NCBI GenBank assembly: GCA_900553395.1
Contig: USDJ01000005.1
Coordinates: 10,489-74,488, forward strand
Reading direction: 5' to 3'
Source of the DNA: an uncultured Mycoplasmatota bacterium
GTDB taxonomy: Bacteria > Bacillota_I > Bacilli_A > RF39 > UBA660
Length of the DNA stretch: 64,000 nt
The notes under the pieces are model-generated. The model worked only from the letters and a program-made list of their open reading frames with translations, ran no database searches and was not told the DNA's origin. Positions 18,149 to 43,247 of the stretch are shown one piece after another; the first letter of the stretch is position 1; every line of letters starts with the position of its first letter. The translations under genes and the position numbers were made by a program.

Positions 18149-18652
18149 ATGATAAATAAAAGAAGTTTATGGTTTTTAACTTTATTTAGTTTAATTTTAA
18201 TATTAAGCATATATTATATAACTATGCCAAGTGAATTACTGCTTACAGGTAATACTAATAATATAAAAACAGATGACAAAGATAAAACTACTATATCTAT
18301 AGAAGAAAGTGATATATTAGTTGCTCTAAGGGTAGAGTCAGATGAAGAAATGACTAAAGAAATAGAAGACCTTCAGTCTGTTTTAACAAACACAGAGTCT
18401 ACTGTAGATGAAAAAAACAAGGCATATGAAAAAATAAAAAAGCTTAATGATACAAGAGGAGAAGAAGAAAAACTTGAGGGTCAAATTAAACAAACCTACA
18501 AATTAGATTCATTTGTAAAGATTAATGATAACGAAATTAAAGTTACCGTGAATAGTTCAGAACATAATGAAAAATTAGCAAACAATATTATGAGAACAAT
18601 TCAAGCTAATTATGAGGACTCTAAATATATAACAGTAAAATTTCAAAAATAA
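18149..18652 (+). CDS. SpoIIIAH-like protein
   Basis: 'KRSLWFLTLFSLILILSIYYI' parallels B. subtilis SpoIIIAH 'KKQTVWLLTMLSLVVVLSVYYI'. An acidic linker follows, then 'EKNKAYEKIKKLN…EEKLEGQIK…IKVTVNSSEHN…ITVKFQ'. Confidence 0.7.
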   Translation: MINKRSLWFLTLFSLILILSIYYITMPSELLLTGNTNNIKTDDKDKTTISIEESDILVALRVESDEEMTKEIEDLQSVLTNTESTVDEKNKAYEKIKKLNDTRGEEEKLEGQIKQTYKLDSFVKINDNEIKVTVNSSEHNEKLANNIMRTIQANYEDSKYITVKFQK

Positions 18653-18674
18653 CTCAGAAAAGAGTTATTTTTTT
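18650..18674 (+). terminator. Weak terminator after the SpoIIIAH-like gene
   Basis: TAACTC-AGAAAA-GAGTTA followed by TTTTTTT. Confidence 0.45.
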
Positions 18675-18758
18675 AGGCCCGCATAATCACTAAATATGTA
18701 AATCTACATAAAATAACATGAGAAAATATAAACCACTCTATTAGGAAGTGAGGGAAAA

Positions 18759-18965
18759 ATGAAAAAAAGTATTTTAACTAAAAGAGAAAAACAAGTCTTT
18801 GAAATGTTAATTACAAATAAAACAACAAAAGAAATAGCAAGTAAATTAAGTATAAGCGAAAAAACAGTTAGAAATCATATTTCAAATGCTATGCAAAAAC
18901 TAGGAGTTAAAGGAAGAGCAAGCGCTGTAGTAGAATTATTAAGGTTAGGAGAAATCTCTTTATAA
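18759..18965 (+). CDS. GerE/LuxR-type single-domain HTH regulator
   Basis: 68 aa, 'LTKREKQVFEMLITNKTTKEIASKLSISEKTVRNHISNAMQKLGV', GerE-like in size and layout. Confidence 0.8.
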   Translation: MKKSILTKREKQVFEMLITNKTTKEIASKLSISEKTVRNHISNAMQKLGVKGRASAVVELLRLGEISL

Positions 18966-18987
18966 AACGTATTTTTATACGTTTTTT
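18964..18987 (+). terminator. Rho-independent terminator
   Basis: AAAACGTAT-TTTT-ATACGTTTT followed by TT. Confidence 0.65.
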
Positions 18988-19011
18988 ACATATATTTTTA
19001 TAGGTGATATT

Positions 19012-19968
19012 ATGCTAAAAAGAATTTATACAAAAAAGTTAATAATATGTACTATTACACTATTTGCTTTATTTTTAATATATATTATTCCTGAAAAAAA
19101 AGAAGAAATAAAAATCAAAGAAGAAATAAATTACGTTAATAAAAATATTGAAACATCCCCAATTTTTCTTCTAGACAAAAATAACTATTTAGCAAGTACT
19201 AGAATAGTTACAACAAAAAAAGACATTGAGGGTTTAGCTACTGAATTAATTGAAGCTCTTATAATTGATGGTAATATGCAAGATAACATACCACCAGGTT
19301 TTAAAGCAATTTTACCAACCAACACTAAAATATTAAGTCTAAGCTTTAAAGATAATATAATAAAAGTTAATTTTAATAAAGAAGTTTTAAATACTAACAA
19401 AGAAAATGAAGAAAGAATTATAGAAGCAATAGTATACACATTAACTGGCTTAGAAAATGTTAAATTTGTAACTATATATGTAGATGGAGAAATTCTAACT
19501 AAGTTACCACAAACAAAAATAAATCTTCCTGCTACTCTAACAAGAAGAATAGGAATAAATAAAGAATACAATGTTAATAGTACAAATAACATAAGTAAAA
19601 CAACAATATATTATATAAGTGAACATAATGATCAAGAATATTATGTACCAGTTACAAAAGTAAATAACGATTCAAGAGATAAAATTGAAATTATAGTAGA
19701 TGAATTAAGCAGTAATAATGTTTACAAAACTAATTTAATGAGCTACTTAAATAATAATACTAAAGTATTATCTGTAAACGAAGATAACAATGAAATAGTG
19801 GTAAATTTTAATAGTGCTATTTTTAATGACATAAACACAAAAGAAATATTAGAGGAAGTAATATACACAATTTCTCTTTCTATAAATGATAATTATGACG
19901 TTTCAAGCATTGTTTTTAATGTAGAAAATGAAGAAATTTACAAAAGTGTTAACAAAAGTATTGAATAA
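19012..19968 (+). CDS. GerM-like (Germane domain) membrane-anchored protein
   Basis: N-terminal TM segment and two GerMN-like modules ('IEAIVYTLTGLENVKFVTIYVDGE', 'EEVIYTISLSINDNYDVSSIVFNVENE'). Confidence 0.68.
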   Translation: MLKRIYTKKLIICTITLFALFLIYIIPEKKEEIKIKEEINYVNKNIETSPIFLLDKNNYLASTRIVTTKKDIEGLATELIEALIIDGNMQDNIPPGFKAILPTNTKILSLSFKDNIIKVNFNKEVLNTNKENEERIIEAIVYTLTGLENVKFVTIYVDGEILTKLPQTKINLPATLTRRIGINKEYNVNSTNNISKTTIYYISEHNDQEYYVPVTKVNNDSRDKIEIIVDELSSNNVYKTNLMSYLNNNTKVLSVNEDNNEIVVNFNSAIFNDINTKEILEEVIYTISLSINDNYDVSSIVFNVENEEIYKSVNKSIE

Positions 19969-25014: not shown

Positions 25015-25068
25015 ACTACCACCTAATTAATAGTATACCAAAAATAAAATTTAAATTAAATATTATAA

Positions 25069-25094
25069 AAGAAAAAACATACAAATTTGTATGT
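25069..25094 (-). terminator. Terminator of the pilin-LRR gene
   Basis: Perfect palindrome ACATACAAA/TTTGTATGT (25077-25094) followed on the minus strand by TTTTTC. Confidence 0.65.
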
Positions 25095-25116
25095 TCATTG
25101 AAATAATTAATTTGTA

Positions 25117-26769
25117 TTATGGTTCAAATACTATATTTGAATCACTATATCCATCAGCCCAACCAAATGCACCACTTGGTAAGTAATTAAAATCTGATAG
25201 AGATGTCTTTCCTTTTACTATAACACTAGTTAGTTTATTTCCATAAAAAGCATAACCAATATAAGCAACGTTATCTGGTATTGTTATAGTCTTTAAATCC
25301 AATTCAGAAAAAGAGGAATTATCTAAAGTAGTTACATTAGATGGAATTTTTATATCTTCCCTTCTAGCGCCAGCATAAGAATTAATAGTAGAACCACCAC
25401 TCATTTTTCCATCAGAATATATAAAAGCTTCACTATCAGGTAATTGATTATTGGTAAATGCTCCATGTCCTAAATTTTTTATAGTGGATGGAATACTTAA
25501 AGACTCAAGCTTATTATTAGCAAAAGCTTTAATTCCTATAGTTTCTATCTTTGATGGTAAATGAATGCTTCTTAATTCATTATAAGTGAAAGCATTGTCA
25601 GCAATTTCAACAACACTATCTGGAATTGTTAAATCTAATAATTTATTTTTGTAAAAAACACCTGTTTCAATTTTTGTTAAATTTGATGGTAAAACTAGTT
25701 TTTTCAAATTATTTTCCGAAAAAGCATAAATACCTATATTTTCAACACTATTTGGAAGTTTTACACTCGTTAATTTATTTTCTGAAAAAGCATAATCACC
25801 TATATTTTCAACACCATTCGGAAGTTTTACACTCGTTAATTTATTTTCTGAAAAAGCATAACTGCTTATCTCTTTTAAATCATTTGAAAATATAATAGCC
25901 TTTATTTTATTTTTCCTAAAAGCCTTTATTCCTATAGTTTTTAAACTTGATGGAAATATTAATGACTCTATTTGATTTCCAACAAATGCTTCTTCTCCTA
26001 TAGTAACTAAACTAGAAGAAAATTTAATAGATGTAAGCTTATTATCCCCAAATGCACGAGCTCCGATAGTTTTTACACTATCAGGCAAAACTATGCTCTC
26101 TAAATTATTTGCATAAAAAGCTTCATCCTCTATAGTCTCAACGCCATCTGGAATAACTATGCTTTTTATTCCATCAGAATATGGAAAACAATAGCCGGGA
26201 CCAGCACAACGCGTTCTATAGAATAAATTACTACCGATAGCTACGACCTTCTTACCACCAATAGTACTTGGAATTACTACATCATATATCCTATTACTAC
26301 TATTAAAAAAACCACATTGGTATTTAGTTATTTTTACTCCATCTCCTGAGTCACTAACCGTAAAGCAACTTTCTGGTGTTGGCTCTAATTCTACTTCTGT
26401 ATTTGTATTTGAATTAGAATATTTACGTCCATTTATGTAAAACTCATATGTTTTAATTTTGCCTTTTTCAAATGTAATTATTCCATTAGTTGGTGTAGTT
26501 CCATCTATTGTAACGTCAACATCATCGCCATCACAAACTAAAGTGTAATCATCAATCACGCATGCAGAAGGGCTAAATTCTTCAGTTAAATTTTTATGAG
26601 CTACCGTTTGCTCTACTGCGTGCAAATAAAGTTCTGCACTTCTATCATCTGCACTTTCTTTAGAATTACCTATAATATTTATTACAATTGGAGTAGCAAT
26701 CATTGCAATTATTGCGAGTACTACTATTACAGCTAAAAGTTCTATTAATGTAAATCCTTTACTTTTCAT
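25117..26769 (-). CDS. Prepilin-signal protein fused to BspA-type leucine-rich repeats (550 aa)
   Basis: N-terminus 'MKSKG|FTLIELLAVIVVLAIIAMIATPIV' is a class III (type IV pilin) cleavage/methylation signal. The C-terminal two thirds are about 11 repeats of 22-23 aa, 'xIPxSVxxIGxxAFxxNxLxSI'. Confidence 0.8.
   Translation of the reverse strand: MKSKGFTLIELLAVIVVLAIIAMIATPIVINIIGNSKESADDRSAELYLHAVEQTVAHKNLTEEFSPSACVIDDYTLVCDGDDVDVTIDGTTPTNGIITFEKGKIKTYEFYINGRKYSNSNTNTEVELEPTPESCFTVSDSGDGVKITKYQCGFFNSSNRIYDVVIPSTIGGKKVVAIGSNLFYRTRCAGPGYCFPYSDGIKSIVIPDGVETIEDEAFYANNLESIVLPDSVKTIGARAFGDNKLTSIKFSSSLVTIGEEAFVGNQIESLIFPSSLKTIGIKAFRKNKIKAIIFSNDLKEISSYAFSENKLTSVKLPNGVENIGDYAFSENKLTSVKLPNSVENIGIYAFSENNLKKLVLPSNLTKIETGVFYKNKLLDLTIPDSVVEIADNAFTYNELRSIHLPSKIETIGIKAFANNKLESLSIPSTIKNLGHGAFTNNQLPDSEAFIYSDGKMSGGSTINSYAGARREDIKIPSNVTTLDNSSFSELDLKTITIPDNVAYIGYAFYGNKLTSVIVKGKTSLSDFNYLPSGAFGWADGYSDSNIVFEP
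25741..25872 (-). repeat. Near-identical 66-bp tandem duplication inside the LRR array
   Basis: 25741-25806 and 25807-25872 differ at only a few bases. They encode 'SENKLTSVKLPNGVENIGDYAF' and 'SENKLTSVKLPNSVENIGIYAF'. Confidence 0.9.
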
Positions 26770-26928
26770 ATATACACACTCCTATCTTATATATTCATTT
26801 TAAAATATTTTCTAATTTTAGTCAAGAGAATCTTATACTATACTTTATATATAACGCATTTATATTCATTATTATATTATTTTGGCTAAATTCTATACGT
26901 TTTATATACACTGAAGTTTATTAATTTT

Positions 26929-26963
26929 AAAAAAAAATGATTAGTTTTAAATTTCTAATCATT
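26929..26963 (-). terminator. Terminator of the infB-rbfA operon
   Basis: 9-bp stem AATGATTAG / CTAATCATT overlapping the rbfA stop, followed by a run of at least 7 T on the minus strand. Confidence 0.7.
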
Positions 26964-27287
26964 AATTTCTTTTATTTTTTCTTCTATTCTCTTTCCATAT
27001 TCAATAGATTCATCATAAATAAAATTTAATTCTGGTATATGTCTTAAGTCTATTCTTTCAGCTAAAACACGTTTTATAAATCCTTTAGCGCTTTTTAAAG
27101 CTTTTAGGGCTTCAGTTCTGTCATTTAATGAAGTAAAATATACTTTACAAAAGCTTAAATCATTTGTAACATCACAAAACGTAATTGTTATAAATTTAGC
27201 ATGAGGATTTTTAACCTCATTAGCCAAAATATAACTTAACTCTTTTTGAATACTACTATTTATTCTTTCGTTTTTAATTATATTCAT
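26955..27287 (-). CDS. rbfA: Ribosome-binding factor A
   Basis: '[14 protein letters not shown]…[19 protein letters not shown]…[12 protein letters not shown]'; 110 aa, and overlaps the infB stop by 4 nt. Confidence 0.93.
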
Positions 27288-29377
27288 TTTTTCTCTACCA
27301 TTTCATAGGCTTCTATTACATCGCCAACTTTTATATCGTTAAAATTAGTTATAGTTATACCACATTCTAAGCCTTTTTTAACTTCTTTAACTGAATCTTT
27401 TTCTCTTTGAATAGAATTGATTTCTCCATCATAAATTACTACACTATCTCTAATTATTCTTACTTTTGAATTAGATTTAAGTACTCCATCTAGTACATAA
27501 CTTCCTGCTATTGTTCCTACTTTAGAGAATTTAAACAATTGTCTTACTTCTGCAGATCCAATAACTTTTTCTTCGTATTCAGGATCTAGCATTCCTTTCA
27601 TTGCAGCTTCCATATCTTCAACAGCCTTATAAATTATATCGTAAAGTCTAATCTCTACTCCTTTTTCTTTAGCATAATCTTTTATAGAATTATTAGGTCT
27701 TATATTAAATCCTATTATTATAGCATTTGAAGCACTTGCTAGTACTATATCACTTTCGGTAATGGCTCCCACACTGCTTCTTAATACTTTTACTTTAACA
27801 CCTTCTACTTCTATTTTTTCTAAAGAATTTTTAACAGCTTCACTTGAACCATTAACATCAGCTTTTACTATAACATTTATTTCTTTTGTACCTTCTTTTA
27901 TTTTAGCAAATATATCTTCTAGGCTAACAGTACCTTTAGAGTTTTGTTTTAAGTGCTCTTCTGTTTTTCTCGCCTCACCTATGCTTCTTGCTTGTTTTTC
28001 TGTTTCAAAAGCCATAAACTTATCTCCAGCGCTTGGTGTTTCATTTAAGCCTGTTATTTCAACTGGCTGTGATGGATATGCCTCAGTTATTTCTTCACCT
28101 TTGTCATTTTTTAATGTTCTAACTTTACCAAAAGTAGTTCCTACTACTATCGGATCTCCTAATCTTAGCGTACCATTTTGTACTAAAATAGTAACAATTG
28201 GACCTACTTGCTTATCTAAACGTGCTTCTACGACACTACCACTTGCATAACGTGCTGGATTAGCTCTATAGTTTTCCATCTCAGCTACAAGTAAAATATT
28301 GTCTAAAAGTTCTTCTATTCCAGTTCCTTCTTTTGCACTTATATTAGTATATATAGTATCTCCACCCCAAGAATCTGGTGTAAGGCCATATTCTGCTAAT
28401 TCAGACATTACTCTTTCTATATTTGCACCTGGTTTATCTATTTTATTTATAGCTACTAATATAGGTACTCCTGCAGCTTTTGCGTGGTCTATTGCTTCTT
28501 TTGTTTGAGGCATAACTCCATCATCCGCTGCAACTATTATTATTACAATATCAGTAATACTCGCTCCTCTTGCACGCATCTCTGTGAAGGCTGCGTGTCC
28601 TGGTGTATCTATAAATGTTATAATCTCATCTTTAACTTTTACTTGATATGCACTTATAGCTTGAGTTATTCCTCCAGCTTCGCCACTTGCTACATTAGTT
28701 TTTCTAATAGTATCAAGCAAAGTTGTTTTTCCATGATCTACGTGTCCCATAATTGTTACAACCGCTGGCCTTTTACGTAAATCTGCTTCTTCATCATTTA
28801 TCTCAAATTCTTCAAATTTTGTTTCATCTATTATATGTTCTCTTTCGATTTCTTTTCCATATTCTGAAGCTAAAAGAGATGCATTATCAAAGTCCACTTT
28901 GTTATTTACAGTGGCAAGAATACCTAGCATAAATAGCTTCTTTATAAGCTCACTTGATTGAACCCCCAACACTTTAGCTAAATCTGCTATTGTCATTCCA
29001 TCTTTATATATAATAACATTTGTATTTTGATGGGGACCATTACTAATAAGTTTCTCCTTATTTTTATACATTTCTTTCTTTTTCTTAGCTAATTCTTTTT
29101 TTCCTACTTTATTTTTATTTATGGGTTTTTCCTGCTTTTTTTGCTTTGAGTTATTAACTATATTTTCTATTTTGCTCTTTTCTTTTTCTATAAGTTCGTC
29201 TTCGTATTCTAACTCAGAATCGTCTTCTATAGAAATAGTATTATCAAGCTCTGTTATTGCGTCTTCATCTAAATAGTCATCTTCTACTGACGCATTTATT
29301 CCTAATTTTTTACAATAGTTTAATATCTCATCCACAGTCTTTCCTACATCTTGTGCATATTCTAATACACTCATCAT
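27284..29377 (-). CDS. infB: Translation initiation factor IF-2
   Basis: '[14 protein letters not shown]', 'DTPGHAAF', 'AINKIDK', and a conserved C-terminal domain. Confidence 0.98.
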
Positions 29378-29393
29378 ATTAGCACCCTCTTTC

Positions 29394-29819
29394 TTAAATT
29401 TTTCTAACTATAGTTCCTGCCTCCTCAAAGAAAGCTTTAGATAGTTCATCTGGATATTCAGAATCGTAAACTATCTCACTTACGCCACTACTTACAAGTA
29501 GTTTTGCACATATATGGCAAGGATAAGTAGTTACATAAGCTACACTGCCATCTAAATCTATTCCATTCCTAGCAGCTTCTGATACTGCGAGTTGTTCAGC
29601 ACAAAGTGCTCTACAAACTTCTCTTCTCTGACCACTAGGTATTTTTAATATATCTCTTATACAACCAACATCACGGCAGTCTCTAATTCCACCTACGGTA
29701 TTATTATAGCCTTGAGCAACTACAAGCCCACCTTTTACAAGTACTGCACCCACCTTTGCTCTAGAGCATTCAGACTTTTCTGCTTGCTCATAGGCCATAT
29801 TCATATATACATTATCCAT
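29394..29819 (-). CDS. ComEB-type deoxycytidylate/cytidine deaminase-family protein with a CAE zinc motif
   Basis: '[29 protein letters not shown]' and '[20 protein letters not shown]' (the family consensus is HAE…PCxxC). AGGAG RBS 6 nt before ATG 29819. Confidence 0.78.
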
Positions 29820-29827
29820 TTTTACTC

Positions 29828-30307
29828 CTATAAGTTAACTTCCATCTTTTTATTTTTGGGTTCATATTTTCTGCATTTTACACCACATTTATCAAGCATT
29901 AATTTTGAAACTACACAACCTGGGGTATCTTTATATTTATCACTTAAATAAATTACTTCTTTTATCCCAGCTTGTATAATAGCTTTAGCGCATTCATTAC
30001 ATGGGAACAATGTTACATATAATATACAACCGCAAACAGAAGATCTTGCATTTAAAATTGCATTAAGTTCAGAATGACATACATATGCATATTTAGTATC
30101 AACAAAAGATCCTTCTCTTTCCCATTTCATATCTAAATCATCATCAAATCCTATAGGTGCTCCATTATATCCAGTAGATATAATTTTATTATTACTATTT
30201 ACTATACAAGCACCTACTTGACTATTTGGATCCTTACTTCTTTGTGAAGATAAAATAGCTATCCCCATAAAGTATTCTTCCCATGATAGATAATCTGATC
30301 TTTTCAT
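29828..30307 (-). CDS. dCMP deaminase (DCTD/T4-type)
   Basis: 'SQRSKDPNSQVGACIV', 'YVCHSELNAILNA' and 'FPCNECAKAIIQAGIKEVIY' are the canonical dCMP deaminase blocks, and are very close to animal DCTD as I remember it. Confidence 0.88.
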   Translation of the reverse strand: MKRSDYLSWEEYFMGIAILSSQRSKDPNSQVGACIVNSNNKIISTGYNGAPIGFDDDLDMKWEREGSFVDTKYAYVCHSELNAILNARSSVCGCILYVTLFPCNECAKAIIQAGIKEVIYLSDKYKDTPGCVVSKLMLDKCGVKCRKYEPKNKKMEVNL

Positions 30308-30564
30308 TAACTCACATCCATTTTCTTTAAATCTTCATATATTTCATCTGGAATTTCTACTTCTAACTTTTTATTTAAAATTTTTGATTTTTGAGCTTTC
30401 TCAAATGTTGCTATATCTCTTTTTAAATAAGCACCTCTACCGTTTATCTTACCCGATACGTCTATTACAACATTTCCATCAGTTGTTCTAACTACTCTTA
30501 TAAGTTCCTTTTTAGGTAATTTTTCTCCTGTTATCACACAAGTTCTCATTGGTATTTTCTTCAT
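30307..30564 (-). CDS. ylxR: YlxR-family RNA-binding protein (DUF448)
   Basis: 'PMRTCVITGEKLPKKELIRVV…GRGAYL'; sits directly after nusA. Confidence 0.85.
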   Translation of the reverse strand: MKKIPMRTCVITGEKLPKKELIRVVRTTDGNVVIDVSGKINGRGAYLKRDIATFEKAQKSKILNKKLEVEIPDEIYEDLKKMDVS

Positions 30565-30568
30565 ATTA

Positions 30569-31753
30569 TTACTCCAAAATATTTATTCCAGCTTCTCTTA
30601 CTTGCTCTAATGTTTTTATCTCAAGATTATAATGGGTAAGACGACTAGCTAATTTAACATTTATACCGTGTCTTCCTATTGCTAAACTTAAGTTTTGATC
30701 ATCGACTACTACCATTGTTTCTTTAGTCTTTTCATCTAATATAAATACTCTTAAATCTTTAGCAGGAGCAAGTGCATTTTGTATAAATTCAACAGGATCT
30801 TTAGAATATTTTACAACATCTATTTTTTCATTACCTAACTCATTTAGAATATTAGCTATTCTAGTGCCTCTTTCACCTATACAAGCACCTATTGGATCTA
30901 CATTACTATTTTCTGAATAAACAGCTATTTTAGTTCTATTACCAGCATCACGAGCTACACTATATATTAATACAGTTCCATCGTTTATTTCTGGTATTTC
31001 AAGTTCGAATAGTCTTTTTATGAATCCATAATGTTTACGAGATAAAAGTATTAAAGCTCCTTTAGAGTTTATGTCAACTTTACTAATATATACTTTAATA
31101 TTTGAGCCCATCTTTATTTGTTCACCTGGTATTATCTCACTTTTTGGAAGTAAACCTTGAGCTTTCCCTAGGTTTATATAATAATTATTCTCATCTTCCA
31201 TCTCAACTATTCCAGACATCATTTCATCTTGCTTTTCACCAAACTCTTTAGCTATATTATTTCTTTCTGCTTCTCTTACTTTTTGAATAATAACTTGTTT
31301 AGCAGTAGATGCAGCAACACGTCCAAAATCTTGTGGTGACACTTCTTCTTCTATAGTCTCTCCTACTTTTATATCTGGATCTATTTTTTTTGCATCTTCT
31401 AATGTTATATGTAATTTATTGTTAAAAACAAATGGTTTATATCTCATTTCTTCCGGCAAATCTTCTAACTCTTCATCCTCTAATTGTTCTTCTGTTAATA
31501 TTTCTTCATCTGAAAGAGGTATCTGATCCTCGTCTAATGATTCCTTATGATTTTTATCAAGTACTACTGTTTTATATGAATATATTTTAAATATATTATT
31601 ATCTTTATCAATTTCAACTCTTGAATTTGATAATCCATAATGCTTTTTATAAGCACTATTTAAAGCAGATACCATAGATTCATACATATATTCTCTATCA
31701 ATACCTTGCTCTTCTAATAAATCTAAAGCTTTTCCAAATTCTTTATTATTCAT
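30569..31753 (-). CDS. nusA: Transcription termination/antitermination factor NusA
   Basis: S1 'GIVEMEDENNYYINLG', KH motifs 'GACIGERGTRI' and 'LAIGRHGINVKLASRL'. ATG 31753 lies 1 nt after the rimP stop. Confidence 0.97.
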   Translation of the reverse strand: MNNKEFGKALDLLEEQGIDREYMYESMVSALNSAYKKHYGLSNSRVEIDKDNNIFKIYSYKTVVLDKNHKESLDEDQIPLSDEEILTEEQLEDEELEDLPEEMRYKPFVFNNKLHITLEDAKKIDPDIKVGETIEEEVSPQDFGRVAASTAKQVIIQKVREAERNNIAKEFGEKQDEMMSGIVEMEDENNYYINLGKAQGLLPKSEIIPGEQIKMGSNIKVYISKVDINSKGALILLSRKHYGFIKRLFELEIPEINDGTVLIYSVARDAGNRTKIAVYSENSNVDPIGACIGERGTRIANILNELGNEKIDVVKYSKDPVEFIQNALAPAKDLRVFILDEKTKETMVVVDDQNLSLAIGRHGINVKLASRLTHYNLEIKTLEQVREAGINILE

Positions 31754-31754
31754 A

Positions 31755-32009
31755 CTATTCACATCCCTTCTCTTTTGAACAAACATCTAATATATAACTA
31801 TCCGTAATATAATCCACACTGTCTAGTAATGAATCAATTATATGAGTAACCTTAACACAATCATCTAAATCAATAATACCATTTTTATCTATAATAACTC
31901 TCAAGAAAAAATTATTATCCTCCTTAACATATAATACATCATCTATCGTGTATCCTTCTTTTAAAACTGATCCTTCTATTAAATCCCTTACTTTACTTGC
32001 AATATCCAT
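31755..32009 (-). CDS. rimP: Ribosome maturation factor RimP, N-terminal domain only (84 aa)
   Basis: 'VRDLIEGSVLKEGYTIDDVLYVKEDNNFFLRVIIDKNGIIDLDDCVKVTHIIDSLLD' matches the RimP N-domain. ATG 32009 follows TTGGAGG. There is no room for a C-terminal domain before nusA. Confidence 0.72.
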   Translation of the reverse strand: MDIASKVRDLIEGSVLKEGYTIDDVLYVKEDNNFFLRVIIDKNGIIDLDDCVKVTHIIDSLLDSVDYITDSYILDVCSKEKGCE

Positions 32010-32020
32010 TAGTACCTCCA

Positions 32021-32054
32021 ATTAATTTAAAGAGTGGGTTTTATTCCCACTCTT
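32021..32054 (-). promoter_or_regulatory. Leader hairpin upstream of rimP-nusA
   Basis: Minus strand reads AAGAGTGGG-AATAAAA-CCCACTCTT followed by TAAATTAATT and the GGAGG RBS. Confidence 0.4.
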
Positions 32055-32154
32055 GCTTGCAACAATATAATTATATCATAAAAATTATAATTTACATAGT
32101 TTTTTTACATTATTATTTATTTTTTTTGGTATAATTATCTAGGAGGAACAAAAA

Positions 32155-32859
32155 ATGAATGAAAATAAGAAAGATTTTAAAAACATGATTCTAGGTTTTG
32201 GAGTAATTACACTATACTTAGTTGCTTCATTGTCTTCATTAAATATATTATCCATTTTTAACATTAATTACAATAACTTTAGTTTACTAGGAAAAGCCAT
32301 ATACGCTATAACCTATGAAGCATTACTTACACTAATCATCATATTTATATATAGAAAAGATTTTATACCAGACTTAAAAATTTTCGTAAAAAATAATGCT
32401 AAATATTTTAAAAAATATATTAAATATTGGTTTTTAGTAATCATACTTATGATTTTAAGCAATGGTATTGTTACAATGTTTACAAACACAGATACTGCAG
32501 CGAACCAAGAAATAATAGTTAATACTCTTAAAAAAGCGCCTATATATATTTTTATAACTACAGTATTTATAGCGCCTATATTGGAAGAATTAGTGTTTAG
32601 GTTATCGTTTAAAAAAATATTTGCACACACAAATTTTCTATTTATATTATTCTCTGGATTTATATTTGGGAGCATGCATGTTATAGGCTCTCTTAATAAC
32701 ATAACTGATATTTTATTTATAATTCCATATAGTATTCCTGGATTTATATTTGCATATACATATACAAAGTCAGAAAATATATGTGTACCAATTAGTTTAC
32801 ATTTTATACACAATGGAGTTAGTATGTGCCTACAAATAATTTTAACTTTTTTAATTTAA
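32155..32859 (+). CDS. CPBP family intramembrane glutamic endopeptidase (CAAX protease/Abi)
   Basis: 'APILEELVFR', 'FGSMH', 'HFIHN'; multi-pass membrane protein. Confidence 0.8.
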   Translation: MNENKKDFKNMILGFGVITLYLVASLSSLNILSIFNINYNNFSLLGKAIYAITYEALLTLIIIFIYRKDFIPDLKIFVKNNAKYFKKYIKYWFLVIILMILSNGIVTMFTNTDTAANQEIIVNTLKKAPIYIFITTVFIAPILEELVFRLSFKKIFAHTNFLFILFSGFIFGSMHVIGSLNNITDILFIIPYSIPGFIFAYTYTKSENICVPISLHFIHNGVSMCLQIILTFLI

Positions 32860-42829: not shown

Positions 42830-43198
42830 TCAATCAACATATTCACAATCTAGTGAATAATCTTTTAAAACTATAAATTTTAATTTATCGTACTCTATAG
42901 ATTTATTAGTATTTGGATTTGTTTCTTTTTTTAAAGCTCCATAACTAATTAAATCGCTTACATTTATTTCTATTACAGTCCCTATAATAGATAGTTCTTT
43001 ATATTCATCCATATTAGAATATATATACGATTTTCCAGCTAAGCAAGCATTACTTACCAATGTTGTATATTTTTTCTCTTCATCATCTTTAGCAGACTTA
43101 AGAAGTGATGGAAAACTAACTAGAAAAATTGCTGCTAAAACTATAACTATAGCTAAAAGTTCTGTTAGTGTAAAACCTTTATTATTAATATTTTTCAT
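42830..43198 (-). CDS. Type IV pilin-like pseudopilin (prepilin N-terminal cleavage/methylation domain)
   Basis: 'MKNINNKG|FTLTELLAIVIVLAAIFLVSFPSLL'; about 122 aa from ATG 43198. Confidence 0.8.
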   Translation of the reverse strand: MKNINNKGFTLTELLAIVIVLAAIFLVSFPSLLKSAKDDEEKKYTTLVSNACLAGKSYIYSNMDEYKELSIIGTVIEINVSDLISYGALKKETNPNTNKSIEYDKLKFIVLKDYSLDCEYVD

Positions 43199-43218
43199 AG
43201 CATCACCAGTATAATTAA

Positions 43219-43247
43219 ATTTTAGCACAAAATTTAAAAATAAACAA
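43219..43247 (-). promoter_or_regulatory. Candidate sigma-A promoter for the pseudopilin operon
   Basis: Minus strand reads TTGTTT, a 17-nt spacer ending in TGC, then TAAAAT (extended -10 type). Read by eye. Confidence 0.35.

What the first reader, a model, noticed from the sequence alone, without database searches (positions are those of the whole stretch)
25117..26769. Type IV prepilin signal fused to a BspA-type leucine-rich-repeat array, as a solitary gene next to polC
The N-terminus 'MKSKG|FTLIELLAVIVVLAIIAMIATPIV' is a textbook class III cleavage/methylation signal. Beyond a roughly 190-aa region lie about 11 LRRs of the BspA/LRR_5 type. The gene has its own terminator and no assembly genes nearby. 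An LRR adhesin presented as a minor or tip pilin, or exported through the prepilin pathway, would be an unusual way for a Gram-positive organism to display a host- or cell-binding module.
Basis: partly seen in the sequence, partly recalled or inferred. Interest (0 to 1): 0.6.

Follow-up and report, generated by a model that had tools for sequence, protein, structure and literature searches.

The report
Type IV pilin carrying LRR adhesin
This gene encodes a "modular" type IV pilin, a pilus subunit with a leucine-rich-repeat binding domain fused to its end; the design is already catalogued, and the gene is one of many such pilin genes scattered through this small gut-bacterium genome.

Summary
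Window 25117-26769, on the MINUS strand, is an intact 550-aa ORF with four parts: a class III (prepilin) signal MKSKG|FTLIELL; a predicted pilin head (55-residue alpha-1 helix plus a beta-sheet); a short low-confidence linker; and a BspA-type LRR solenoid. Pfam scores are N_methyl 28.8 bits (cut-off 21.2) and LRR_5 E=2.6e-96. The solenoid has 11 contiguous 22-aa repeats, 2 more after an insertion, and a degenerate first unit.

The genome has one bifunctional prepilin peptidase, one PilB and one PilC, on another contig.

"Solitary" and "unusual" do not hold. The 1.16-Mb genome has 15 N_methyl hits and at least 6 pilin-LRR paralogs. Raynaud et al. 2021 already list the architecture IPR012902-IPR026906 among the most frequent "modular pilins". 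Half of the top 120 database homologs share it.

The position between rbfA and polC is species-specific and lies at a rearrangement junction.

Best reading: a PilD-processed modular pilin that displays an LRR adhesin on a type IV filament, probably at the tip. Processing, assembly and ligand are all inferred.

Verdict: new member of a known kind, modest interest.

Side observation: congeneric genomes of about 1 Mb carry 10-73 prepilin genes served by a single PilD.

The parts
26797..26825 (-). Promoter-like site, TTGACT-17 nt-TAAAAT, upstream of the gene
   Evidence: 10 of 12 matches. This is a consensus match only. The region is AT-rich, and such sites are no more frequent here than in shuffles.
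26779..26783 (-). Ribosome-binding site AGGAG, 9 nt before the ATG
   Evidence: Read directly from the sequence.
25117..26769 (-). CDS of the 550-aa modular type IV pilin (prepilin signal + pilin head + LRR_5 solenoid)
26755..26769 (-). Leader peptide MKSKG (residues 1-5) of the class III signal. The predicted PilD cleavage site is after Gly5, leaving Phe as mature residue 1 and Glu as mature residue 5.
   Evidence: Pfam N_methyl residues 2-25 and TIGR02532 residues 4-26, both above cut-off. G5 is nearly invariant and F6, T7 and E10 are invariant in 32 homologs. Cleavage itself is inferred.
26584..26754 (-). Alpha-1 helix of the pilin module (residues 6-62; the model shows a helix at 8-62)
   Evidence: AlphaFold models. 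phmmer against PDB hits only pilins and pseudopilins over this stretch.
26410..26583 (-). Beta-sheet head of the pilin module (residues 63-120; six strands between 69 and 118)
   Evidence: pLDDT about 76-87. The Foldseek test of the head alone was inconclusive.
26281..26409 (-). Flexible linker (residues 121-126, pLDDT below 50) and N-terminal cap hairpin of the LRR module (residues 127-163, with the conserved C..F...Y.C motif)
25222..26280 (-). BspA-type LRR solenoid (residues 164-516): a degenerate first unit, 11 contiguous 22-aa units (204-445), a conserved 27-aa insertion (446-472), then 2 more units
   Evidence: LRR_5 E=2.6e-96. Repeat register. pLDDT 90-98. Foldseek hits 4fs7 at E=9e-11, plus 4gt6, 4fdw, PcpA 4cp6 and TpLRR 6mlx.
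25709..25861 (-). Recent tandem duplication of one 66-bp (22-aa) LRR unit: 2.3 copies, 94% identical
   Evidence: Tandem Repeats Finder. It corresponds to units 314-335 and 336-357.
25120..25221 (-). C-terminal cap (residues 517-550), ending ...GWADGYSDSNIVFEP. It is conserved in all pilin-LRR paralogs. There is no LPXTG motif and no C-terminal TM segment.
25067..25096 (-). Intrinsic-terminator-like hairpin (9-bp stem, 4-nt loop) followed by UUUCUUUU
   Evidence: dG -10.4 kcal/mol, z -3.05.

Best explanation
The gene encodes a modular type IV pilin. The proposed mechanism has four steps, all inferred. (1) The prepilin is inserted in the membrane through its hydrophobic alpha-1N segment. (2) The genome's single bifunctional prepilin peptidase (PilD; A24_N_bact + Peptidase_A24 domains, contig C9) removes the MKSKG leader and N-methylates Phe1. 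(3) The single PilB ATPase and PilC platform, on the same contig, extrude a filament built mainly from the small conserved major pilin (139 aa, contig C4). (4) The 550-aa subunit joins through its pilin head, most probably at the filament tip because of its bulk, and holds out a ~350-residue BspA-type LRR solenoid on a short flexible linker as a ligand-binding (adhesive) module. The ligand (host, mucus, food particle or another microbe) is unknown. The gene is one member of a dispersed, diversifying family in which related pilin heads carry different cargo modules. Shown here: the sequence signatures, the predicted folds, the presence of the machinery, the paralog family, and precedent for the architecture. 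Inferred: cleavage, methylation, polymerisation, tip location and adhesion.
For: The class III signal is above the curated cut-offs in two libraries. G-1 is nearly invariant and F+1 and E+5 are invariant across 32 homologs. The AlphaFold model (mean pLDDT 88.7) shows helix 8-62, a beta-sheet at 69-118, a low-confidence linker at 121-126 and an LRR solenoid at pLDDT 90-98. Structural matches are to BspA-type LRR surface proteins and adhesins. PDB sequence hits of the head are exclusively pilins or pseudopilins, including S. sanguinis PilE1. PilD, PilC and PilB sit together on C9, with a pilin-LRR paralog and two small pilin-like ORFs beside them. The first 24 mature residues match the predicted major pilin at 21 of 24 positions (64% identity over 48 aa), which is compatible with packing in one filament core. 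There is no LPXTG motif, no C-terminal TM segment and no Sec-type signal, so the pilin N-terminus is the only anchoring device. The ORF is intact, with an RBS, a promoter-like site and a terminator, and its GC content matches its neighbours. Precedent: S. sanguinis PilB (vWA module) is a crystallographically and functionally proven modular pilin adhesin, and the architecture IPR012902-IPR026906 (BspA LRR) has 18 + 6 entries in Dataset S1 of that paper. PilD is single-copy and conserved in 18 of 19 genomes of the genus, all of which carry many such substrates.
Against: Foldseek with the head alone found no significant pilin match (best hit C. difficile PilW, TMq 0.35, E 1.3). The pilin fold therefore rests on secondary-structure topology and sequence motifs. 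The machinery is minimal: this 94.7%-complete assembly has no PilT and no PilM (the PilM_2 hit is FtsA). Whether it builds long pili or short pseudopili is open. With 15 or more prepilins for one machine, not all can be tip subunits of the same filament. Two sortases exist, so other display routes are available. The ligand is unknown, and adhesion is inferred only by analogy with other LRR_5 proteins.
Confidence: 0.68

Rival explanations
1. The protein is a PilD-processed but non-filamentous surface protein. On this reading the class III signal serves as a general export and anchoring route. The mature protein stays anchored in the membrane by alpha-1N, or forms only short pseudopilus-like or bindosome-like assemblies. 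The LRR is then exposed at the cell surface instead of on a long pilus. The precedent is the archaeal sugar-binding proteins with class III signals, which are assembled by the Bas 'bindosome' system (established knowledge, not tested here).
For: There are very many substrates per machine: 15 in this genome and up to 73 in a congener, with a single PilD. No PilT or PilM was found. The machinery is Com- or T2SS-like in its minimal composition. The cargo modules are large and diverse.
Against: A small major pilin conserved across the genus exists, which implies a real filament. Alpha-1N is nearly identical to that major pilin. The only experimentally studied modular pilins (S. sanguinis PilB and PilC) are found in pili (PMC9934059 listed). 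A peptidoglycan wall is expected, since a PBP transpeptidase gene lies in the window. A membrane-anchored 550-aa protein would have to span that wall.
Confidence: 0.2
2. The N-terminus is an ordinary uncleaved signal-anchor TM helix. On this reading the protein is a type II membrane protein with an extracellular LRR and has no link to the pilus machinery.
For: There is no direct evidence of cleavage. The gene is unlinked to the machinery.
Against: The full G|FTLIELL consensus with Glu+5 is invariant across homologs, which an ordinary TM anchor would not require. A prepilin peptidase with a methyltransferase domain is present and conserved. The region after the TM segment continues as a 55-residue helix followed by a beta-sheet, as in pilins.
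Confidence: 0.05
3. The gene is a silent or decaying paralog, a reservoir cassette for recombination with expressed pilin genes, and is not itself a working gene.
For: The family shows module swapping: head identity is 89% between an LRR-bearing paralog and a non-LRR paralog. Contig breaks fall inside paralogs. There is a recent intragenic repeat duplication.
Against: The ORF is an intact 550 aa with its own RBS, promoter-like site and terminator. The fold is predicted with high confidence. DNA identity to paralogs is only about 76%, so it is not a recent silent copy.
Confidence: 0.05

Closest known systems
Modular type IV pilins of Streptococcus sanguinis: PilB (vWA module) and PilC (lectin module) (Raynaud et al. 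2021, PMC8179133; PMC9934059)
   Same: Both occur in a monoderm host. Both have a class III signal, a small pilin module and a short linker leading to a bulky, generic ligand-binding module. Both are proposed to be tip-displayed adhesins.
   Different: The cargo here is a BspA-type LRR solenoid, not a vWA or lectin module. The gene is unlinked to the pil locus and is one of many paralogs. No PilT or PilM was detected here. Nothing has been tested experimentally.
InterPro architecture IPR012902-IPR026906 (N_methyl + BspA-type LRR), listed in Dataset S1 of Raynaud et al. 2021 (18 proteins, plus 6 with two LRR_5 hits)
   Same: The domain architecture is identical. 60-63 of the top 120 database homologs also share it.
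   Different: The paralog expansion and lineage context described here are not in that paper.
BspA-family LRR_5 surface proteins and adhesins: Tannerella forsythia BspA, pneumococcal PcpA (4cp6), Treponema pallidum TpLRR (6mlx), GBS HupY/LrrG (NF047961)
   Same: The LRR_5 repeat type and fold are the same, and a surface-exposed binding role is assumed.
   Different: From general knowledge, those proteins are anchored or exported through Sec signals with choline-binding, lipoprotein, LPXTG or T9SS devices. This one has a prepilin N-terminus and no C-terminal anchor. Its HupY score of 174 bits is far below the 1250-bit cut-off, so it is not an ortholog.
Large tip-located minor pilins with extra domains: ETEC CofB, Thermus ComZ, T2SS GspK (as discussed in PMC8179133)
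   Same: All are pilin-fold subunits enlarged by an extra structural domain and placed at the filament tip.
   Different: Their extra domains are specific to type IV filaments and are not generic repeat modules. They are encoded within the machinery operons.
Archaeal class III-signal sugar-binding proteins (the Sulfolobus 'bindosome')
   Same: Many non-pilin-like cargo proteins share a prepilin-type signal and one peptidase.
   Different: They belong to a different domain of life and a different machinery (Bas). The comparison is relevant only to the rival explanation and was not tested here.

Membership tests
Type IV pilin / class III signal protein (PF07963, TIGR02532) | A short basic leader ending in Gly(-1), a hydrophobic residue (Phe or Met) at +1, and Glu at +5 | tested here: met
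   The sequence is MKSKG|FTLIE. N_methyl scores 28.8 bits (cut-off 21.2) and TIGR02532 scores 30.2 bits (cut-off 16.3). F6, T7 and E10 are invariant and G5 is nearly invariant in 32 homologs.
Type IV pilin / class III signal protein (PF07963, TIGR02532) | A long N-terminal alpha-1 helix (about 50 residues, hydrophobic first half) packed against a C-terminal antiparallel beta-sheet | tested here: inconclusive
   Both AlphaFold models give a helix at 8-62 and six strands between 69 and 118. Foldseek with the head alone found no significant PDB match (best hit C. difficile PilW 7t31, TMq 0.35, E 1.3). phmmer against PDB hits only pilins, but mainly over alpha-1N.
Type IV pilin / class III signal protein (PF07963, TIGR02532) | A cognate prepilin peptidase, assembly ATPase and platform protein encoded in the genome | tested here: met
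   PilD (PF06750 + PF01478), PilC (T2SSF, GspF 274 bits) and PilB (T2SSE 420 bits) lie on contig C9. PilD is single-copy in 18 of 19 congeners.
Type IV pilin / class III signal protein (PF07963, TIGR02532) | Actual leader cleavage, N-methylation and incorporation into a filament | not testable with these tools
   This needs biochemistry or proteomics.
BspA-type leucine-rich repeat (LRR_5, PF13306 / IPR026906) | A match to the LRR_5 profile with repeated units of about 22 residues | tested here: met
   E=2.6e-96 over 4 stretches. There are 13 regular 22-aa units.
BspA-type leucine-rich repeat (LRR_5, PF13306 / IPR026906) | The repeats fold as a curved beta-solenoid like solved LRR_5 proteins | tested here: met
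   pLDDT is 90-98 over residues 200-520. Foldseek hits are 4fs7 at E=9e-11, 4gt6 at 8e-10, 4fdw, PcpA 4cp6 and TpLRR 6mlx, each at probability 1.00.
Modular pilin, in the sense of Raynaud et al. 2021 | An N-terminal IPR012902 pilin module fused through a short linker to a domain not specific to type IV pilus biology | tested here: met
   Domain order. The linker at 121-126 has pLDDT below 50, between two confident modules. The architecture IPR012902-IPR026906 is listed in Dataset S1, and IPR026906 is the BspA LRR entry.
Modular pilin, in the sense of Raynaud et al. 2021 | A direct role of the grafted module in a pilus-mediated function (adhesion) | not testable with these tools
   This is inferred only by analogy with PilB and with LRR_5 adhesins.
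Sortase-anchored LRR adhesin (internalin-like, LPXTG) | An N-terminal Sec signal and a C-terminal LPXTG motif + TM segment + basic tail | tested here: not met
   The C-terminus reads ...GWADGYSDSNIVFEP, with no LPXTG and no hydrophobic tail. The internalin models score only 16 bits against cut-offs of 1275-1600. Sortases do exist in the genome, but this protein lacks their signal.
Competence (Com) pseudopilins ComGC to ComGG | A score above the equivalog cut-offs, a small size, and a location in a comG operon | tested here: not met
   ComGC scores 24.7 bits against a cut-off of 75, and ComGD, ComGE and ComGF are all below cut-off. The protein is 550 aa and is not in an operon with the ATPase.

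The most novel reading that the evidence does not exclude
In this genus of uncultured, reduced-genome (0.9-1.6 Mb), low-GC gut Firmicutes, the type IV filament machine has become a main platform for surface display. A single conserved PilD/PilB/PilC set serves 10-73 prepilin genes per genome, most of them 300-670-aa modular pilins. Related pilin heads are recombined with interchangeable cargo modules: BspA LRRs, Ig-like domains, and an unassigned module ending in 'G[VI]RPVIE'. The genes are scattered as single units among housekeeping genes and at rearrangement junctions. The result would be a large, fast-evolving repertoire of pilus-tip adhesins, functionally comparable to the variable surface-protein families of other host-associated microbes. 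The target gene would be one cassette of that system.
Probability: 0.4. Interest if true: 0.6.

Novelty: new member of a known kind. Interest (0 to 1): 0.32.

Why it matters
As a single gene it adds little. Modular pilins are an established concept, and the N_methyl + BspA-LRR architecture is already listed, though no member has been characterised.

It would matter in two ways. First, the LRR_5 cargo is one of the architectures flagged 'no clear function' in the 2021 survey. A binding partner for any member would fill that gap. Second, the genus-level picture is not described in the papers I could find. It comprises one peptidase and machine, tens of dispersed modular pilins making up several percent of the genes in a ~1-Mb genome, heads shared between different cargos, recent repeat duplication, and non-conserved locations. 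It suggests how genome-reduced, uncultured gut bacteria may attach to hosts, particles or partner cells. That bears on the open question of why these lineages resist cultivation.

Tried and rejected
- Foldseek of the pilin head alone against PDB gave no significant hit. Most PDB pilins lack alpha-1N, and a long single helix dominates the model, so I treat this as inconclusive and not as evidence against the pilin fold.
- Naming the organism failed. An exact look-up of the protein found nothing or was withheld. InfB homologs carry no names. The congener accession GCA_910584085.1 appears in no paper. The 'RF39' label comes only from an earlier AI note and is unverified.
- PilM: the only PF11104 hit is FtsA (194 bits, above its cut-off).
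- PilT: the two additional T2SSE-family ATPases are TadA/CpaF-type and VirB11-like, not retraction ATPases.
- Functional linkage to polC or rbfA is rejected. There are separate terminators on both sides, and neither adjacency is conserved.
- Phase-variation signatures: there is no homopolymer longer than 7 nt inside the gene, and no convincing inverted repeats around the promoter.
- Recent horizontal acquisition is rejected. The gene's GC is 29.8%, against 27.5% for the window and 30-32% for polC and infB.
- The idea that pilins are the only surface-display route is rejected. Two sortases and a multi-TM LRR_5 protein exist.
- The TANB77 'conserved pilin' paper describes a Tad/CpaF-type cluster, which is a different system.
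Full report
**1. What is there**

The finding's coordinates delimit a real ORF, but on the minus strand. It encodes 550 aa, starting MKSKGFTLIELLAVIVVLAIIAMIATPIV.
- Pfam gives N_methyl at residues 2-25 (28.8 bits, cut-off 21.2) and LRR_5 at E=2.6e-96 in four stretches.
- NCBIfam gives TIGR02532 (30.2 bits, cut-off 16.3). It also gives sub-threshold hits to ComGC, GspG, PilA and to the LRR adhesin HupY/LrrG.
- By register the repeat region has 11 contiguous 22-residue units (204-445), a 27-residue insertion conserved in paralogs, two more units (473-516), a degenerate first unit (~164-186) and a conserved C-terminal cap.
- Two adjacent units are a recent 66-bp duplication: 25709-25861, 2.3 copies, 94% identical.
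- There is no LPXTG motif and no C-terminal TM segment.

**2. Transcription unit**

On the coding strand the order is nusA, ylxR, two deaminase genes, infB, rbfA, the target, then polC.
- rbfA is followed by a small hairpin and T9.
- A TTGACT-17-TAAAAT site follows, with AGGAG 9 nt before the ATG.
- After the stop codon there is a 9-bp hairpin plus a U-run (dG -10.4 kcal/mol, z -3.05).
- The gene therefore looks like an independent unit. Its GC content (29.8%) matches its neighbours.

**3. Structure**

- An AlphaFold model built with 32 homologs has mean pLDDT 88.7. It shows a helix at 8-62, strands between 69 and 118, a low-confidence linker at 121-126, a capping hairpin, and then a solenoid at pLDDT 90-98 running to the C-terminus.
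- Foldseek against PDB returns BspA-type LRR surface proteins: 4fs7 at E=9e-11, 4gt6, 4fdw, pneumococcal PcpA 4cp6 and T. pallidum TpLRR 6mlx. The condition 'the repeats do not fold as LRRs' is therefore not met.
- The head modelled alone (pLDDT 77.4) keeps the same helix-plus-sheet topology, but it gives no significant Foldseek hit. The best geometric match is the C. difficile minor pilin PilW.
- By sequence, the head hits only pilins and pseudopilins in PDB: MshA, S. sanguinis PilE1, geopilin, GspG and PilA.
- I rate the pilin fold as probable, not proven.

**4. Machinery**

The genome (1.16 Mb, 23 contigs, 27% GC, 94.7% complete) has one.
- Contig C9 carries PilC (T2SSF), a 256-aa PilD with both A24_N_bact and Peptidase_A24 domains, and PilB (T2SSE, 420 bits).
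- Beside them lie a 292-aa pilin-LRR paralog and two small pilin-like ORFs.
- The two other T2SSE-family ATPases are TadA-type and VirB11-like. The sole PilM_2 hit is FtsA.
- The machine is therefore minimal, with no PilT or PilM detected. It resembles Com or T2SS-type sets.

**5. The gene is not solitary**

- A motif scan and a six-frame HMM search find 14-15 prepilin genes in this genome.
- Four complete genes are prepilin + LRR_5: C2:109927-111351, C2:98977-100686, the target, and C9:36466-37344.
- Two more LRR C-termini with the same cap are cut by contig ends (C9:2-895 and C14:2-703), so the assembly breaks inside this family.
- Other prepilins carry Ig-like domains or an unassigned module ending in 'G[VI]RPVIE'.
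- The head of the LRR-bearing C2:109927 gene is 89% identical over 102 aa to the head of the non-LRR C14:794 gene. One carrier is thus combined with different cargos.
- The target's head is 68% and 64% identical to those two.
- At DNA level the target is about 76% identical to its paralogs over the 5' head (including ~55 nt upstream) and over the 3' cap. The family is old and diverged.
- A 139-aa small pilin (C4:82625-83044) shares 21 of the first 24 mature residues with the target. It is the likely major subunit.

**6. Position**

- In 11 of 12 congeners, rbfA is followed by a transglutaminase-core gene, rpsT, gpr, one or more small pilin genes, and der.
- In this genome that block lies intact on contig C4. 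It sits next to a 738-aa gene whose size and position match the RecD2-type gene that flanks the other end of the nusA operon in congener G003. The ~6-kb block from the Rce1-like gene through rbfA has therefore been relocated.
- Upstream of polC, five of six congeners have a small pilin followed by one large gene and then polC. efp-sized ORFs precede the pilin in G005 and G006.
- None has a pilin-LRR gene upstream of polC. G008 has a different 302-aa modular pilin there.
- G005 has a 492-aa modular pilin after rbfA, but with a non-LRR cargo.
- The target thus sits at a species-specific rearrangement junction. Its neighbours say nothing about its function.
- No congener has a close ortholog; the best full-length match is 36% identical.

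**7. How widespread**

- Of the 120 best database homologs, 63 carry both PF13306 and PF07963 by precomputed Pfam, and 60 do by my regex. Almost all come from unnamed metagenome assemblies.
- None of the 80 LRR_5 loci in named GTDB representative genomes, which matched only in the LRR region, has the prepilin signal. The fusion looks lineage-restricted and is not a general property of LRR_5 proteins.
- The closest homologs are again scattered among housekeeping genes: three or four prepilin genes in 13 kb, next to a ZIP transporter gene, dinB, nrnA and pgk.

**8. Genus-level picture**

- N_methyl hits per genome are 10-73 in the 19 genomes of the genus, own genome included: G005 73, G018 49, G002 47, G015 46, G008 34.
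- Most other families of the class have 0-7. G019 has 16 and G024 has 24.
- Most of these ORFs are 300-670 aa.
- The PilD N-domain is single-copy in 18 of 19 genomes of the genus. In the sampled genomes of the class, its presence tracks the higher counts of substrates.
- I found no paper describing this. The RF39/TANB77 literature retrieved concerns a Tad-type pilus or general genome reduction.

**9. Comparison with the known**

- Raynaud et al. 2021 (PMC8179133) showed that S. sanguinis PilB is a pilin module fused to a vWA adhesin. They surveyed InterPro and found more than 1,200 modular pilins in 264 architectures.
- IPR012902-IPR026906 is the seventh most frequent architecture (18 proteins, plus 6 with two copies). 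It sits among the architectures with 'no clear function'.
- IPR026906 is the BspA-type LRR / LRR_5 entry.
- The target meets the architectural definition of a modular pilin. The functional features cannot be tested here.

**10. Verdict**

It is wrong on 'solitary' and overstated on 'unusual'.
- This is a new member of a known, catalogued but uncharacterised kind.
- My confidence is about 0.9 that it is a PilD substrate, and about 0.65-0.7 for the full chain of processing, filament incorporation and adhesion.
- The more interesting lead is the family-level expansion, which I rate separately in the novel case.

**11. Limits**

- The organism's name could not be verified. An earlier AI note says order RF39.
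- Counts from six-frame motif searches include fragments and pseudogenes.

Noticed in passing
window 42830-43228 (-): A second, small prepilin gene (about 122-132 aa, ...NNKGFTLTELLAIVIVLAAIFLV...) lies just downstream of efp. Its orthologs in congeners sit upstream of polC, with one large gene in between. About 16 kb, including the target gene, therefore separates it from polC only in this genome.
   Followed up: partly
window 26955-32859, compared with G000 contig C4:79582-87946: The ~6-kb block from the Rce1-like gene through rimP-nusA-ylxR-deaminases-infB-rbfA has moved relative to 11 congeners. In those genomes rbfA abuts a transglutaminase-core gene. Here that gene abuts a 738-aa gene on C4, RecD2-like by size and position only. 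The target pilin gene sits at the new junction.
   Followed up: yes
congeners G001-G018 (genome search): There is a very large expansion of prepilin genes in genomes of about 1 Mb: up to 73 N_methyl hits in G005 (1.3 Mb), mostly ORFs of 300-670 aa, with a single-copy PilD. It is not described in the papers I could retrieve.
   Followed up: partly
L108 (G002:C26:8700-14300) and further G002:C26 N_methyl hits to ~15524: There is a tandem array of small (133-161 aa) major-pilin-like genes after gpr in congener G002: 6 in the fetched locus and 10 N_methyl hits in all on that contig stretch. G004 has two copies. This could be a variable major-pilin locus.
   Followed up: no
G000 C9:2-895, C14:2-703, C16:15240-15324: Three contigs end inside pilin or LRR paralogs: two LRR C-termini and one prepilin head. 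The assembly breaks in this repeat family, so the true paralog count is higher than the complete ORFs suggest.
   Followed up: partly
G000 C14:794-1873 compared with C2:109927-111351: Nearly the same pilin head (89% identity over 102 aa) carries a non-LRR cargo ending in '...YTRPVITLKK' in one gene and an LRR array in the other. This is direct evidence of cargo swapping within the family. Pfam finds no domain in the non-LRR cargo at E<0.01.
   Followed up: partly
G000 C7:14723-16417: A 564-aa protein has several TM segments, a zinc-ribbon-like CxxC..CxxC motif and a C-terminal LRR_5 array, but no prepilin signal. The same genome therefore displays BspA-type LRRs in a second, different way.
   Followed up: no
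G000 C9:37932-39677 (L002:9933-11678): PilC is 581 aa, with an N-terminal extension of about 170 residues ahead of the region that matches the GspF/PilC models. No Pfam or NCBIfam family matches the extension.
   Followed up: no
G000 C3:112399-113736 and C7:38394-39593: A TadA/CpaF-type ATPase and a VirB11-like ATPase are encoded elsewhere in the genome.
   Followed up: partly
window 29394-30307 (-): Two different dCMP/cytidine-deaminase-family genes sit between ylxR and infB, where many Firmicutes have ylxQ. The arrangement is the same in congener G003 (L114).
   Followed up: no
window 18149-19968; G000 C9:43085-44125; G000 C4:83098-84108; L114: Sporulation-associated genes are kept in this 1.16-Mb genome and its congeners: SpoIIIAH-like, GerM-like, YlbJ, gpr and SpoVIF. 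That is unusual for strongly reduced Firmicute genomes.
   Followed up: no
G024:C4:27501-27998: An LRR match in a 0.9-Mb genome of the same class contains two in-frame TGA codons. This could reflect a TGA=Trp code in that lineage, or a pseudogene.
   Followed up: no
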